Translations under genes and position numbers: made by a program
Notes under the pieces: model-generated
Seen by the model: only the letters and a program-made list of their open reading frames with translations
What the model was told of the DNA's origin: nothing
The model's database searches: none
Shown: positions 53,136 through 55,224 of the stretch, piece after piece
How the letters are laid out: every line of letters begins with the position of its first letter
Position numbering within the stretch: the first letter of the stretch is position 1
Assembly: GCA_947166565.1 (NCBI GenBank)
Contig: CAMVEL010000007.1
Coordinates: 7,323-71,322 of the forward strand
DNA from: an uncultured Erysipelotrichaceae bacterium
GTDB lineage: Bacteria > Bacillota_I > Bacilli_A > RFN20 > CAG-826
Length of the DNA: 64,000 nucleotides
Direction of reading: 5' to 3'

Positions 53136-53360
53136 ATGGCTTTTAAGAAAATGCGTTCTCGCAAGAAGCAGTGCTATTTCAAAAAGAACCACATCAAGTT
53201 CATCGATTATAAGGATGTCGAAACCCTCAAGAAATTCGTTTCTTCCGATGGCAAGATTACCCCTCGTTCCATCACCGGCACGAGCGCCAAATATCAGCGT
53301 GAACTTGCGGTTGCGATCAAGAACGCCCGTTATATGGGTCTTCTCCCAGTCGTTAAGTAA
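53136..53360 (+). CDS. rpsR: 30S ribosomal protein S18
   Basis: It is 74 aa with the basic stretch [10 protein letters not shown]. Confidence 0.95.
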
Positions 53361-53420
53361 ACTAGCCTGCTTGTCGCAGGACGAACCCGATTCCCCGATT
53401 TAGGACAAAACGGATTCACC

Positions 53421-53470
53421 TCGACGACGAAGCAACAAACCATCAAGACCGTCCCACGTGGGCGGTTTTC
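53421..53470 (+). repeat. Repeat copy A (tail-head junction) with the terminator hairpin CCGTCCCACGTGGGCGG+TTTTC. It probably terminates the rpsF-ssb-rpsR operon.
   Basis: It matches copy C in 45 of 46 positions. Confidence 0.8.
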
Positions 53471-53503
53471 TTATGTTTCTCCTCTTGCTAGTAGTATAAT
53501 TGG

Positions 53504-53620
53504 CTTGGGAATGATGTCTCCCATCTAGAAATAGAGAACCGCAATGAAGTGCTGATGACGTCTATGACTTGTTTTGTCATAGAAATCAGCGCTTTTGTTT
53601 CTATGGCAGATGGGAGGTAT
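53504..53620 (+). promoter_or_regulatory. Candidate fluoride riboswitch (crcB motif), with the aptamer at about 53506-53568 and a translational expression platform
   Basis: The P1 stem is GGGA/UCCC. Its loop GAUGUC can form a pseudoknot with GACGUC, which follows the conserved GCUGAUGAC-UCUAUG. The AACCGC and short P3 segments are present. Downstream, AGAUGGGAGG (the SD) is complementary to CCUCCCAUCU on the 3' side of P1. Confidence 0.55.
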
Positions 53621-53622
53621 CG

Positions 53623-54813
53623 ATGAATATATTTCTGTCTTTGTTTATTATTTTTGGTGGTGGGATCCTCGGTGGGTTTTTATTTGAGAAGATCAAACTC
53701 CCCAAACTGGTGTGGTATATCATTCTCGGGATTCTTATTGGACCATCTTTGTTCAATATCGTTGATGATACGTTGCTGTCGGTTTCGTCTCATCTAAGGC
53801 AAATCGCTTTGGTCATCATATTGACCAGGTCAGGCCTATCTTTGAACATTAAGAACCTAAAGAAAATAGGGCGACCTGCGATATTGATGTGCTTTTTACC
53901 CGCTTGTTTTGAAATTGCGGGCATCACGATATTTGGCCCAATGCTCCTCGGGATATCCTATTTCGAAGCCTTGCTTCTTGGCTCGGTCTTGGCGGCCGTT
54001 TCGCCGGCGGTAGTGGTTCCGAGAATGATTCGCCTAATGGAAGAAGGATATGGAAAAGAACACTGCGTGCCCGAACTTGTGATGGCGGGGGCATCTTGTG
54101 ACGACATCTTTGTAATCGTACTTTTCTATTCGTTCAAGAATCTGATCGCAACGTCCACCTTTGACGCTTGGAGCGTCGGGCAAATCCCCATTTCGATCGT
54201 CTCCGGTGTCATTTTGGGCATCGGAGTAGGCTTCTTGATGGTTTTAGCCATTCGATACATGAAACTAAATAGAATCGTCCATGTCATTTTGATGCTCGGT
54301 CTCTCCTTTGGGATGCTCGCCCTCGAGAATGCCTTGAAACCGTATTTCAGCGTTTCGTCTCTATTAGCCATCATCGTCATGGCATTTGTGGTGGGCGTCT
54401 TTAAAAAAGAGGAAGCGAAGGAGATGCAGAAATCCTATAACGGCTTATGGCAAGGTTTTGAAATCCTATTGTTCGCTCTCGTTGGCATTGCGGTCGATGT
54501 TCGTTACGCTTTTTCAAAAGAAGGGGCAGTCATCGTTGGGCTGGTTTTCATTGCGTTGGTATTTAGAAGTTTAGGCGTGTTTTGCAGCATAATTGCAACG
54601 AAATTCGCTTGGAAAGAAAAACTATATATCGTCGTTTCTTATCTCCCTAAGGCGACCGTTCAAGCATCGATTGGGGCGATTGCTTTGTCCGAAGGCCTTG
54701 CTTGCGGCACGTTGGTGCTGACCGCTGCGGTGGTGGCAATATTGATAACCGCTCCATTGGGTGCGATATTGATGGATAACCTGAAAAACAAATTGCTTAA
54801 GAGGGAGGCGTAG
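53623..54813 (+). CDS. CPA1-family cation/proton antiporter (Na+/H+ exchanger family)
   Basis: It has about 12 TM segments and a Na_H_Exchanger-like fold. The start is set to MNIFLSL, which follows the GGGAGG SD. The listed start at 53569 is an upstream in-frame extension. Confidence 0.75.
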   Translation: MNIFLSLFIIFGGGILGGFLFEKIKLPKLVWYIILGILIGPSLFNIVDDTLLSVSSHLRQIALVIILTRSGLSLNIKNLKKIGRPAILMCFLPACFEIAGITIFGPMLLGISYFEALLLGSVLAAVSPAVVVPRMIRLMEEGYGKEHCVPELVMAGASCDDIFVIVLFYSFKNLIATSTFDAWSVGQIPISIVSGVILGIGVGFLMVLAIRYMKLNRIVHVILMLGLSFGMLALENALKPYFSVSSLLAIIVMAFVVGVFKKEEAKEMQKSYNGLWQGFEILLFALVGIAVDVRYAFSKEGAVIVGLVFIALVFRSLGVFCSIIATKFAWKEKLYIVVSYLPKATVQASIGAIALSEGLACGTLVLTAAVVAILITAPLGAILMDNLKNKLLKREA

Positions 54814-54834
54814 TTCCTTCGACTCTTTTATAGG

Positions 54835-54937
54835 CAAGAAGCAACAAATCAACAGGACCGTCCCACGTGGGGCGGTTTTTTCATGCTCGTCCGCCCCTCG
54901 TCCTGGAGTTTTCAGAAGCCATCGACGTCGAAGCTAC
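54835..54937 (+). repeat. Repeat copy B (full unit: hairpin + CCCTCGTCCTGGA module + CATCGACGTCGAAGC tail)
   Basis: About 75% identical to copy D over roughly 85 bp. The hairpin is GACCGTCCCACGTGGGGCGG+TTTTTT. Confidence 0.75.
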
Positions 54938-54968
54938 TTTATATACTTGTATATAACTCGTTCTGGCT

Positions 54969-54996
54969 AGCCCCGGTCGTCCCACGTCTCACGATC
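54969..54996 (+). repeat. Degenerate additional hairpin-module copy (CGGTCGTCCCACGTCTCACGATCGTCC)
   Basis: It shares the CGTCCCACGT core with copies A, B and C. Confidence 0.4.
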
Positions 54997-55170
54997 GTCC
55001 TTGTGCCGGCAAATTGTTAGGCGTCGTTGGAATCGTGTCACATGGCTCGAATATGGGCTTCGTCGGAGAGAGCGGAGTTTGTTCTTTTTCGGAGAATTGG
55101 CGTCGTCATGGGACAGCTTGTGTGTCAGGACGAGAGCAATTCTCCTCGTTCATACGAAGATCGTTCTCCC

Positions 55171-55220
55171 CGAAACACGAAGCAACAAACCAACAAGACC
55201 GTCCCACGTGGGCGGTTTTC
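55171..55220 (+). repeat. Repeat copy C (tail-head junction), abutting the 3' end of the minus-strand ABC-2 operon
   Basis: CGAAGCAACAAACCAACAAGACCGTCCCACGTGGGCGGTTTTC. Confidence 0.8.
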
Positions 55221-55224
55221 TATT

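What the first reader, a model, noticed from the sequence alone, without database searches (positions are those of the whole stretch)
53504..54813. Candidate fluoride riboswitch controlling a CPA1 cation/proton antiporter through SD sequestration
The leader contains the elements of the crcB motif. Helix P1 is GGGA/UCCC with loop AUGAUGUC. An AACCGC segment and a 3-bp P3 are present. The sequence GCUGAUGACGUCUAUG follows, and its GACGUC can pair with the P1 loop GAUGUC to give the characteristic pseudoknot. Immediately downstream, AGAUGGGAGG (the SD) is perfectly complementary to CCUCCCAUCU on the 3' side of P1. Ligand-stabilised P1 would therefore free the RBS, which makes this an ON switch. 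A TATAAT lies about 6 nt before the aptamer. Na+/H+-antiporter-family genes are a known but poorly understood class of fluoride-riboswitch targets. The ORF caller's upstream start at 53569 would translate part of the riboswitch.
Basis: partly seen in the sequence, partly recalled or inferred. Interest (0 to 1): 0.55.

Follow-up and report, generated by a model that had tools for sequence, protein, structure and literature searches.

The report
Ordinary fluoride riboswitch before antiporter gene

Summary
Rfam's fluoride model RF01734 hits 53498-53571 (+) at 37.5 bits (threshold 34, E 8.9e-07). P1, a 3-bp P3, the pseudoknot and a TATAAT 6 nt upstream are all present. The 11-nt "insertion" is the optional hairpin already in the 2010 crcB seed alignment. 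Of 78 testable relatives of the downstream gene (44-99% identity; Bacillota and Bacteroidota), 73 carry the aptamer upstream, and the fold covaries.

The mechanism needs revising. A canonical intrinsic terminator (53549-53592, -19.7 kcal/mol, then UUUUGUUUCU) uses the aptamer's 3' part as its 5' arm, and almost all relatives share this. The SD-masking helix is real here: 14 bp, duplex -28.6 kcal/mol, about 3 sd beyond shuffles. But it is confined to this species group and shows no compensatory changes. I read it as a transcriptional ON switch with a lineage-specific translational back-up.

"CPA1" is doubtful. The protein has an invariant DD motif, and its closest solved relative is NHA2/SLC9B2 (E 7.7e-45).

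Fluoride riboswitches before Na+/H+ antiporter genes, and overlapping terminators, are already published. The finding is correct, already known, and of low interest.

The parts
53495..53500 (+). TATAAT -10 box of the cassette's own promoter. The predicted transcript starts at about 53507, the first G of P1. The -35 is weak.
   Evidence: Sequence. A -10-like hexamer lies 6-11 nt before P1 in most related leaders, and the L008 clade has the extended form TGATATAAT. The consensus promoter scan did not call it.
53498..53571 (+). Fluoride riboswitch aptamer as delimited by Rfam RF01734 (crcB motif).
   Evidence: 37.5 bits against a gathering score of 34, E 8.9e-07, full model 1-64. A clade model R1 gives 57 bits at 53507-53565.
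53507..53522 (+). P1 hairpin: GGGA (53507-10), loop AUGAUGUC (53511-18), UCCC (53519-22). Loop bases 53513-53518 form the 5' strand of the pseudoknot.
   Evidence: cmscan alignment. P1 is paired in 100% of cells in 49 distinct relatives.
53524..53535 (+). Optional hairpin UCUA-GAAA-UAGA between P1 and the linker. Rfam treats it as an insertion.
   Evidence: RNAfold finds a hairpin at this site in 64 of the 65 parsed Bacillota leaders, with many different stem sequences; L030 pairs only by eye. All 6 pairs show changes on both sides. The same optional hairpin columns exist in the 2010 seed alignment.
53537..53552 (+). AACCGC linker plus the 3-bp P3 (GCA 53541-43 with UGC 53550-52, loop AUGAAG).
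   Evidence: cmscan alignment. P3 is 93.2% paired, and all 3 pairs show changes on both sides.
53553..53566 (+). Conserved 3' tail UGAUGACGUCUAUG. Bases 53557-53562 (GACGUC) form the 3' strand of the pseudoknot.
   Evidence: Sequence. The pseudoknot is paired in 100% of cells, and 4 of 5 pairs change on both sides across relatives.
53549..53592 (+). Intrinsic terminator hairpin. 5' arm GUGCUGAU..UCUAUGAC overlaps the P3 3' strand, the junction and the pseudoknot 3' strand. Loop UUGUUUU. 3' arm GUCAUAGA.AUCAGCGC. It cannot form together with the folded aptamer.
   Evidence: dG -19.7 kcal/mol. It replaces P3 in the minimum-energy fold as soon as base 53592 is transcribed. The same arrangement occurs in almost all of the 69 leaders. 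The simple scan missed it because of its internal loop and bulge.
53593..53602 (+). Terminator U-tract UUUUGUUUCU. It starts 30 nt before the start codon.
53513..53536 (+). 5' strand of the SD clamp: GAUGUCUCCCAUCU (53513-26) plus AUAGAG (53531-36). It covers part of the P1 loop, the P1 3' strand and the optional hairpin.
   Evidence: Minimum-energy fold of 53504-53640: -52.7 kcal/mol, z -5.78. Duplex -28.6 kcal/mol, against -18.0 for the next-best SD context in the window. Only 4 of 1000 SD-preserving shuffles reach it.
53599..53621 (+). 3' strand of the SD clamp: UUCUAU (53599-604) plus AGAUGGGAGGUAUC (53608-21). It contains the SD GGGAGG (53612-17).
   Evidence: In the unconstrained ensemble the probability that the SD is unpaired is about 0.
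53623..54813 (+). Cation/proton antiporter gene, 396 aa, NHA2/SLC9B-like, with the DD motif at D160-D161. The true start is ATG 53623, not TTG 53569.
   Evidence: PF00999, E 9.5e-44. Nearly all of the 120 closest homologues are 396 aa. PDB best hit is NHA2 7b4l, E 7.7e-45, over residues 6-394. DD, SPA..P and PKATVQA are invariant in 12 diverse relatives.
54836..54880 (+). Downstream terminator of the gene. It lies within copy 2 of a 45-nt direct repeat; copy 1 (53427-53471) ends the upstream rpsR unit.

Best explanation
**What it is.** This is a canonical fluoride riboswitch (crcB motif, RF01734) that turns on a single-gene cassette encoding an NHA2-like cation/proton antiporter.

**Without fluoride.**
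- Transcription starts at about 53507, just after a TATAAT box, so the RNA begins with P1.
- The pseudoknot is not locked.
- The segment 53549-53568 (P3 3' strand, junction, pseudoknot 3' strand) pairs instead with 53576-53592.
- That forms an intrinsic terminator, and RNA polymerase stops in the U-tract at 53593-53602, 30 nt before the start codon.

**With fluoride.** Fluoride is bound as a Mg2+-F- cluster (established knowledge of the class). The P1-loop/3'-tail pseudoknot (53513-18 with 53557-62) holds the terminator's 5' arm, and polymerase reads through into the gene.

**Second layer, in this species group only.** In a full-length RNA without bound ligand, the P1 loop, the P1 3' strand and the optional hairpin pair with the SD region. 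This is a 14-bp helix plus a 6-bp extension that encloses the terminator hairpin, so leaky read-through transcripts would be translated poorly. A folded, ligand-bound aptamer withholds that strand.

**Shown and inferred.**
- Shown here: family membership by score, the structural elements, their covariation across relatives, the terminator and its conservation, the thermodynamic strength of the clamp, and the near-constant linkage of aptamer and gene.
- Inferred: fluoride binding itself, termination efficiency, the transcription start site, and any effect of the clamp on translation.

**Physiological role (inference).** The antiporter adjusts cytoplasmic pH and cation balance under fluoride stress. 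One possibility is that it imports H+ to shrink the pH gradient that drives HF/F- accumulation.
For: **Aptamer**
- RF01734 scores 37.5 bits against a gathering score of 34.

**Linkage to the gene**
- 68 of 80 loci encoding relatives of the antiporter have an RF01734 hit above threshold directly upstream on the same strand.
- A clade model adds 5 more. Two loci lack upstream DNA, so the total is 73 of 78.

**Covariation over 49 distinct aptamers**
- 95.1% of cells are paired, against 77.6% in shuffles.
- The covariation score is 0.403, against 0.111 in shuffles (0 of 500 reach it) and at most 0.082 with slid partners.
- The pseudoknot is 100% paired.

**Terminator**
- dG is -19.7 kcal/mol, followed by UUUUGUUUCU.
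- The same aptamer-overlapping hairpin and U-tract occur in almost all leaders.
- Growing-transcript folds switch from P3 to the terminator at 53592.
- Published descriptions match: terminators overlap the crcB motif and predict an ON switch (PMC2864571), and a full covariation model shows the terminator's conserved overlap with the aptamer (PMC12667848).

**Clamp**
- The minimum-energy fold is -52.7 kcal/mol, z -5.78.
- The duplex is -28.6 kcal/mol, against a mean of -11.2 and a next-best of -18.0 for the 27 SD contexts of the window (own site included in the mean). Only 4 of 1000 SD-preserving shuffles reach it.

**Known gene class**
- Na+/H+ antiporters are the next-most common fluoride-riboswitch-associated genes after the exporters (PMC11139923).
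- C. difficile has one fluoride riboswitch ahead of a CLC plus NhaP-type antiporter operon (PMC11477304).
Against: - The Rfam score is only 3.5 bits above threshold. The optional hairpin is scored as an insertion and P3 has only 3 bp.
- The -35 element is weak, and the promoter scan did not call the site.
- The U-tract is interrupted (UUUUGUUUCU).
- No experiment shows ligand binding or termination for this RNA.
- The clamp lacks comparative support:
  - z is about -3 in most of the >=93%-identity group.
  - z is about -0.4 to -2.5 in the neighbouring clades (about 78-86% identity and their metagenome relatives).
  - z is about 0 or positive in most distant relatives.
  - L107 and L131 keep the identical 5' strand but have an uncompensated, diverged SD strand.
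- With roughly 10-15 independent lineages examined, one lineage at p of about 0.004 is not overwhelming.
- In the modelled ON state the SD is still partly paired to codons 3-5 (probability unpaired 0.07-0.67).
Confidence: 0.8

Rival explanations
1. This is the first reader's model: a purely translational ON switch. The RNA is always made in full. Without fluoride, the P1 3' strand pairs with the SD. With fluoride, P1 and the pseudoknot hold that strand and free the ribosome-binding site. The hairpin and U-tract are not a working terminator.
For: - The 14-bp helix covering the SD is the outer helix of the minimum-energy fold (z -5.78).
- It is far stronger than for other SD contexts in the window or for SD-preserving shuffles.
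- The U-tract is imperfect.
- Translationally acting fluoride riboswitches are mentioned in the literature (PMC11477304: 'inducing the transcription or translation').
Against: - The hairpin-plus-U-tract overlapping the aptamer is conserved across almost all relatives in several phyla.
- The clamp is not conserved.
- The clamp's 3' strand is transcribed only after the terminator, so the termination decision comes first.
- Complementarity between SD and P1 3' strand is partly automatic, because CUCCC resembles the anti-SD sequence.
Confidence: 0.12
2. The aptamer is a decaying relic. The sequence still resembles the crcB motif but no longer binds fluoride usefully, and the gene is expressed constitutively or under other control.
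For: - The Rfam score is close to threshold (37.5 against 34).
- P3 is reduced to 3 bp.
- Scores in this clade (35-39 bits) are lower than in distant relatives (45-52 bits).
Against: - All highly conserved consensus positions are retained.
- The pseudoknot is intact.
- The leader is 100% or nearly identical across several species-level genomes and metagenome contigs.
- The low score is explained by the known optional hairpin being scored as an insertion.
- Terminator overlap is maintained.
Confidence: 0.03
3. This is a variant-specificity aptamer. The antiporter-linked subclass (invariant GGGAAUGA core plus the hairpin) might sense another ion relevant to a cation/proton antiporter, such as Na+ or Li+, rather than fluoride.
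For: - Other cation/proton antiporter genes are controlled by Li+ and Na+ riboswitches (PMC9646797, listed).
- The subclass is very uniform in sequence.
Against: - The conserved core matches the fluoride consensus at the strongly conserved positions.
- The optional hairpin also occurs in non-antiporter crcB RNAs of many phyla.
- In C. difficile one fluoride riboswitch precedes an operon holding both a CLC-type protein, the class shown to export fluoride, and an NhaP-type antiporter.
- Bacteroidota members of the same gene clade use the hairpin-less canonical form.
Confidence: 0.03

Closest known systems
Transcriptional fluoride riboswitches with an aptamer-overlapping intrinsic terminator (archetype: Bacillus cereus crcB; PMC11077080, PMC8752731, PMC12667848)
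   Same: - It has a pseudoknotted aptamer followed by an intrinsic terminator.
- The terminator's 5' arm is the aptamer's 3' tail, so the two folds exclude each other.
- Fluoride turns expression on.
- The terminator stem covaries with the aptamer tail across relatives.
   Different: - The downstream gene is an antiporter, not crcB.
- The optional P1-linker hairpin is present.
- P3 has only 3 bp.
- In this species group an extra long-range helix also covers the SD.
Fluoride riboswitches upstream of Na+/H+ antiporter genes (Baker et al. 2012 as summarised in PMC11139923; C. difficile CD0656-7 in PMC11477304)
   Same: - The riboswitch class and the gene class are the same.
- The antiporter is annotated 'NhaP-type Na+/H+ or K+/H+ antiporter', as JGI names close homologues here.
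   Different: - Here the antiporter stands alone in a single-gene cassette bracketed by terminators.
- In C. difficile it follows a CLC-type gene in one operon.
crcB motif seed alignment of Weinberg et al. 2010 (PMC2864571, supplementary file crcB.sto)
   Same: - It contains rows of the same subclass, for example gut-metagenome BAAV01024370 (GGGAAUGAU.GUUCUCCCC..UGGGA..UUCCAAAA..CCGC).
- It has dedicated columns for the optional hairpin between P1 and the linker.
   Different: Nothing essential. The window's copy is one more instance, from a rumen Bacillota lineage.
NHA2 / SLC9B2 (PDB 7b4l, 7p1i)
   Same: - It is the closest solved relative of the protein: E 7.7e-45, aligned over residues 6-394.
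- It shares the SPAVVVP, DD and PKATVQA motifs.
   Different: - NHA2 is a eukaryotic protein of about 535 aa with an N-terminal extension of about 115 residues.
- No link between NHA2 and fluoride was found in the held literature.
Li+ and Na+ riboswitches controlling cation/proton antiporter genes (PMC9646797)
   Same: An ion-sensing ON riboswitch lies in front of a cation/proton antiporter gene.
   Different: The aptamer folds are unrelated. No such Rfam family matched here.

Membership tests
Fluoride riboswitch (crcB motif, Rfam RF01734) | Covariance-model score at or above the curated gathering score | tested here: met
   37.5 bits against 34; E 8.9e-07 for the whole window; full-length match to model positions 1-64.
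Fluoride riboswitch (crcB motif, Rfam RF01734) | P1 hairpin whose loop pairs with the 3' tail to form a pseudoknot | tested here: met
   P1 is 53507-10 with 53519-22. The pseudoknot is 53513-17(18) with 53558(57)-62, 5-6 bp. Across 49 relatives both are 100% paired, and 4 of 5 pseudoknot pairs change on both sides.
Fluoride riboswitch (crcB motif, Rfam RF01734) | Second helix (P3 in Rfam's order) flanked by the conserved AACCGC and GCUGAUGA segments | tested here: met
   AACCGC is at 53537-42 and GCUGAUGAC at 53551-59. The helix has only 3 bp here. It is 93.2% paired across relatives.
Fluoride riboswitch (crcB motif, Rfam RF01734) | Located in the 5' leader of a gene class known to be fluoride-regulated | tested here: met
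   It lies 51 nt upstream of a PF00999 antiporter gene. This gene class is named in PMC11139923 and PMC11477304. 73 of 78 relatives keep the linkage.
Fluoride riboswitch (crcB motif, Rfam RF01734) | Selective Mg2+-dependent binding of fluoride and fluoride-dependent gene activation | not testable with these tools
   This needs in-line probing, ITC and reporter assays.
Terminator-type (transcriptional) expression platform | Stable hairpin followed by a U-tract, mutually exclusive with the aptamer, upstream of the start codon | tested here: met
   The hairpin is 53549-53592 (dG -19.7 kcal/mol), followed by UUUUGUUUCU. It overlaps the P3 3' strand and the pseudoknot 3' strand and is conserved in almost all relatives. 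Actual termination was not tested.
SD-sequestering (translational) expression platform | SD pairs with a strand that the ligand-bound aptamer withholds | tested here: met
   14 bp, 53513-26 with 53608-21, covering SD 53612-17. The duplex is -28.6 kcal/mol, and 4 of 1000 SD-preserving shuffles reach it.
SD-sequestering (translational) expression platform | The pairing is conserved or covaries among relatives | tested here: not met
   z is about -3 in most of the >=93%-identity group only. It is weaker or at chance elsewhere. L107 and L131 have the same 5' strand with an uncompensated SD strand. No double-sided changes were seen.
CPA1 (NhaP/NHE-type) antiporters | Na_H_Exchanger fold (Pfam PF00999) | tested here: met
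   E 9.5e-44 over residues 16-382. This domain is shared with CPA2 members, so it does not discriminate between the two.
CPA1 (NhaP/NHE-type) antiporters | ND (Asn-Asp) ion-binding motif rather than the DD of CPA2 (established knowledge of the families), and closest similarity to CPA1 proteins | tested here: not met
   The motif is ...AGASCDDIF..., with D160-D161 invariant in 12 diverse relatives. It aligns to the DD of NHA2 and NapA. PDB ranking: NHA2 7.7e-45, NapA 6e-08, MjNhaP1 1.5e-06. NCBIfam hits are all far below cut-off and mixed between NhaP2-like, CPA2 and CPA1 models. JGI names homologues 'NhaP-type', so the label depends on the scheme used.

The most novel reading that the evidence does not exclude
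The antiporter clade may not be a general housekeeping Na+/H+ exchanger. It may instead be a dedicated fluoride-stress effector. Three observations point that way:
- 73 of 78 relatives across two phyla are gated by a fluoride aptamer.
- It is the closest bacterial relative of animal NHA2/SLC9B2 among solved structures.
- It keeps a strictly invariant DD site.

Its role could be to import H+ in exchange for Na+ or K+. That would shrink the transmembrane pH gradient that drives weak-acid (HF) accumulation of fluoride, rather than 'counteracting acidification' as usually assumed. In this rumen lineage it would also be controlled at two levels, transcription termination plus SD masking.
Probability: 0.2. 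Interest if true: 0.45.

Novelty: already known. Interest (0 to 1): 0.15.

Why it matters
- It gives a clean annotation for an uncultured rumen Bacillota genome: a fluoride-inducible antiporter cassette, a corrected start codon (ATG 53623, not TTG 53569), and a mapped terminator.
- It adds little to riboswitch biology. The aptamer, its optional hairpin, the overlapping terminator and the link to Na+/H+ antiporter genes are all published.
- Two modest points go beyond routine annotation:
  - This NHA2-like, DD-motif antiporter clade is almost always fluoride-gated. That makes it a well-defined target for the still open question of what these antiporters do under fluoride stress.
  - This species group shows a possible second, translational layer added to a transcriptional fluoride switch.

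Tried and rejected
- **Consensus terminator scan.** It did not report the leader's terminator, because the stem has an internal loop and a bulge. I found it by folding.
- **First protein scans.** They failed because I used ATG 53624; the correct position is 53623.
- **MAFFT and the covariance-model alignment.** Both put the window clade's 8-nt P1 loop one column out of register. A first padded alignment split P1's 3' strand wrongly. I fixed the parser, hand-corrected L070, and imposed the register with N-padding before counting pairs.
- **Extra hairpin as a new subclass feature.** I considered this and rejected it after reading the 2010 seed alignment, which already has it.
- **Compensatory changes in the SD clamp.** I searched 80 genome loci and 16 metagenome leaders from one metagenome scan (54 hits, mostly chance 18-mer matches). 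I found none.
- **Founding papers.** Baker 2012 (PMC4140402, PMID 22194412) and Ren 2012 (PMC3744881) are not held. Statements about the Mg2+-F- binding site therefore rest on secondary sources and general knowledge.
- **Literature search for NHA2 plus fluoride.** It gave nothing relevant.
- **Rfam at a permissive threshold on the 340-nt unit downstream of the gene.** It found nothing.
- **Not attempted.** I did not scan the rest of the window for crcB/Fluc or CLC-F genes. I also did not test whether the optional hairpin is enriched in antiporter-linked switches relative to other fluoride switches.
Full report

Yes. A scan of the whole window against Rfam at curated thresholds gives two hits. 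One is an SRP RNA far away. The other is RF01734 (fluoride riboswitch, crcB motif) at 53498-53571 on the + strand: 37.5 bits against a gathering score of 34, E 8.9e-07, matching the full model. A permissive local scan finds nothing else there.

- P1 is GGGA/UCCC (53507-10 with 53519-22), with loop AUGAUGUC.
- AACCGC lies at 53537-42.
- P3 has 3 bp (53541-43 with 53550-52).
- The tail GCUGAUGACGUCUAUG lies at 53551-66.
- The pseudoknot pairs GAUGUC with GACGUC (53513-18 with 53557-62; six pairs, one a U.G).
- TATAAT lies at 53495-53500, 6 nt before P1.
- The SD GGGAGG lies at 53612-17 and the ATG at 53623.

Three details need correcting:
- The strand opposite the SD reads UCUCCCAUCU, not CCUCCCAUCU, so the 10-mer has one wobble. 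The helix is in fact longer, at 14 bp (53513-26 with 53608-21).
- The SD segment is not "immediately downstream". It starts 42 nt after the tail, with another structure in between.
- The 11 nt that Rfam treats as an insertion fold into a small hairpin, UCUA-GAAA-UAGA (53524-35).

The TTG at 53569 is not the start codon. Nearly all of the 120 closest database homologues (93-98% identity) are 396 aa, which matches ATG 53623.

**2. Comparative evidence**

I used the 396-aa protein to fetch 80 loci from one genome per species. Identity ranged from 99% down to 44%. The loci came from rumen and gut Bacilli, Erysipelotrichaceae and Anaeroplasmataceae MAGs, Lachnospiraceae, Oscillospiraceae, Tissierella, Clostridium, and several Bacteroidota.

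- Rfam at gathering threshold finds RF01734 directly upstream, on the same strand, in 68 of them.
- Two of the remaining loci have no upstream DNA.
- A covariance model built from these aptamers recovers five more (L060, L023, L049, L033, L073) and finds no second copy in the window.
- The linkage therefore holds in 73 of 78 testable loci.

I aligned 49 distinct aptamers in a hand-registered alignment. N-padding was needed because both MAFFT and the model alignment misplaced the 8-nt P1 loop. The pair count gives:
- 95.1% of cells form standard pairs, against 77.6% in shuffles.
- The covariation score is 0.403, against 0.111 in shuffles (0 of 500 reach it) and at most 0.082 with slid partners.
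- P1 and the pseudoknot are paired in every sequence, and four of the five pseudoknot pairs change on both sides.
- All six pairs of the small hairpin change on both sides. One caveat applies: its columns were registered with per-sequence folding, which favours the structure.

The hairpin is present in essentially every Bacillota leader and absent in the three Bacteroidota ones. It is not new. The original 2010 crcB seed alignment has dedicated columns for an optional hairpin at exactly this site in many phyla, including a gut-metagenome row of this same subclass.

**3. The expression platform**

Folding the leader shows more than that.

The segment AAGUGCUGAUGACGUCUAUGAC-UUGUUUU-GUCAUAGAAAUCAGCGC forms a hairpin (53549-53592) of -19.7 kcal/mol, followed by UUUUGUUUCU (53593-53602). 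Its 5' arm is the P3 3' strand, the conserved junction and the pseudoknot 3' strand. The terminator and the folded aptamer therefore exclude each other.

Folds of the growing transcript keep P1, the small hairpin and P3 up to 53585. They switch to the terminator as soon as 53592 is made. The same design recurs in almost all 69 leaders, with the stem covarying with the aptamer tail: a hairpin whose 5' arm is GCUGAUGAC..., then a U-tract. Only L061 lacks a U-tract.

This is the architecture described for the class:
[quoted passage not shown] **4. Is the SD helix more than chance?**

In this sequence, yes.
- The minimum-energy fold of 53504-53640 is -52.7 kcal/mol (z -5.78). Its outer helix is the 14-bp P1-loop/P1-3' strand with the SD region. 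A 6-bp extension (53531-36 with 53599-604) encloses the terminator.
- The duplex energy is -28.6 kcal/mol.
- The 27 SD-plus-ATG contexts heading long ORFs in the window (this gene's own site included) average -11.2, and the next best reaches -18.0.
- Shuffles that keep GGGAGG fixed average -18.1 (sd 3.4), and 4 of 1000 reach -28.6.

So the helix exceeds the trivial complementarity between any GGAGG and P1's CUCCC.

Comparatively, however, it is local.
- z is about -3.1 to -3.7 in most of the species group at >=93% protein identity (L001, L002, L004, L006, L007, and metagenome contigs L122 and L133). L005 is an exception at -1.4, and L003 could not be scored.
- z is about -0.4 to -2.5 in the neighbouring clades (about 78-86% protein identity, plus metagenome relatives L092, L107, L116 and L126). 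Most of these retain AUUUCUAUG, which is complementary to the small hairpin.
- z is about 0 or positive in most of the more distant relatives.
- Variation inside the helix is either wobble-neutral (L003, L005) or disruptive (L005, L007).
- L107 and L131 keep the identical 5' strand but have AGAUUGGAGAAUAC on the SD side, with no compensation.

I therefore treat the clamp as physically real here and plausibly functional as a second layer that silences read-through transcripts. It is not the conserved mechanism.

A modelled ligand-bound state (aptamer helices enforced, pseudoknot bases withheld) pairs the freed terminator 3' arm with UUUCUAUGGCAGA. The SD is then only weakly paired to codons 3-5, with a probability of being unpaired of 0.07-0.67, against about 0 in the free fold.

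**5. Promoter and unit structure**

A -10-like hexamer sits 6-11 nt before P1 in most lineages. It is TATAAT in the window and TGATATAAT in the L008 clade. This supports a dedicated promoter with transcripts starting at about P1. The -35 in the window is weak, and the simple scan did not call the site.

The rpsR terminator (53445-53469) lies just upstream and another terminator (54856-54880) just downstream. The cassette is therefore a single-gene unit.

**6. The protein**

- Pfam: Na_H_Exchanger, E 9.5e-44.
- NCBIfam: only sub-threshold, mixed hits.
- Solved structures: the best match by far is NHA2/SLC9B2 (7b4l, E 7.7e-45, residues 6-394 aligned). NapA follows at 6e-08 and the CPA1 protein MjNhaP1 at 1.5e-06.
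- The alignment shows shared SPAVVVP, DD and PKATVQA motifs.
- D160-D161 are invariant in 12 diverse members of the clade, including two without an aptamer.

From established knowledge of these families, DD is the CPA2/NHA-type signature and ND the CPA1 signature. "CPA1" is therefore not supported, although JGI names homologues "NhaP-type". The label depends on the classification scheme and does not affect the main conclusion.

**7. What is known**

- C. difficile has one fluoride riboswitch ahead of a CLC plus NhaP-type antiporter operon (PMC11477304).
- Overlapping terminators and the optional hairpin date from 2010.

Any Rfam-based annotation pipeline would label this site. I found no paper in the held library that links NHA2 homologues to fluoride. 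The physiological role of these antiporters remains inferred: pH homeostasis according to the review. My alternative is H+ import that collapses the pH gradient driving HF/F- accumulation, and that is an inference only.

**8. Verdict**

The best explanation is a canonical fluoride ON riboswitch that acts mainly through an aptamer-overlapping intrinsic terminator. This species group adds an SD-masking helix. The switch controls an NHA2-like cation/proton antiporter.

My confidence that it is a fluoride riboswitch is about 0.9, and about 0.8 for the full statement. Novelty: already known. Interest: low (0.15).

Noticed in passing
window 53427-53471, 54836-54880, 55177-55221 (+): There are three direct copies of a 45-nt element (ACGAAGCAACAAACCAWCAAGACCGTCCCACGTGGGCGGTTTTCT). 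Copies 1 and 3 are 98% identical; copy 2 is 82%. Each ends in a terminator hairpin. They occur nowhere else in the 64-kb window and bracket the riboswitch-antiporter cassette.
   Followed up: partly
window 54881-55221 (+); L003 2464-2849; L005 2466-2846; L002 4946-5313: A unit of about 340 nt lies between repeat copies 2 and 3. It is conserved at 81-89% in related genomes but sits upstream of the riboswitch in L003 and L005, and downstream of the antiporter in the window and L002. It has no Rfam match at E<=1 and a fold z-score of -2.56. All three + frames are open, and it carries an AT-rich palindromic box at about 54939-54958. It could be an unannotated small RNA or a module that recombines between the repeats.
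   Followed up: partly
window 53300-54900 compared with L001-L007: The riboswitch-antiporter cassette is 94-96% identical in nucleotides to L001-L004. The flanks are at most 81% identical or do not align by megablast. In other relatives (L013, L016, L018, L019, L021) a tRNA gene lies just upstream of the aptamer instead of rpsF-ssb-rpsR. The cassette seems better conserved, or more mobile, than its surroundings.
   Followed up: no
window 2580-2665 (-): There is a bacterial small SRP RNA (RF00169, 51.8 bits). It is the only other Rfam hit in the window at gathering threshold.
   Followed up: no
L039, L044, L063, L067, L069: Five relatives of the antiporter have no detectable fluoride aptamer anywhere in about 7 kb, with either Rfam or the clade model. 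The DD motif is nevertheless kept in the two I aligned (L044, L067). How these copies are regulated is unknown.
   Followed up: no
L047 about 2790-2960: After the riboswitch terminator, the leader of this Agathobacter locus holds about six tandem copies of a roughly 18-nt unit (GAGCTTTTTTGCTTTATT). The unit repeats the terminator's 3' end and U-tract, and it lengthens the leader to 232 nt.
   Followed up: no
L052 2127-3000: Here the aptamer lies 874 nt upstream of the antiporter, with another ORF in between. By eye that ORF looks nitroreductase-like, but I did not scan it. This suggests a two-gene fluoride-controlled operon in that lineage.
   Followed up: no
L006 4389-4566; L017 2143-2235; L030 1489-1580: Other riboswitches sit next to the antiporter cassette in relatives. 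A lysine riboswitch lies just downstream in L006. A SAM riboswitch lies upstream in L017, and a THF riboswitch upstream in L030.
   Followed up: no
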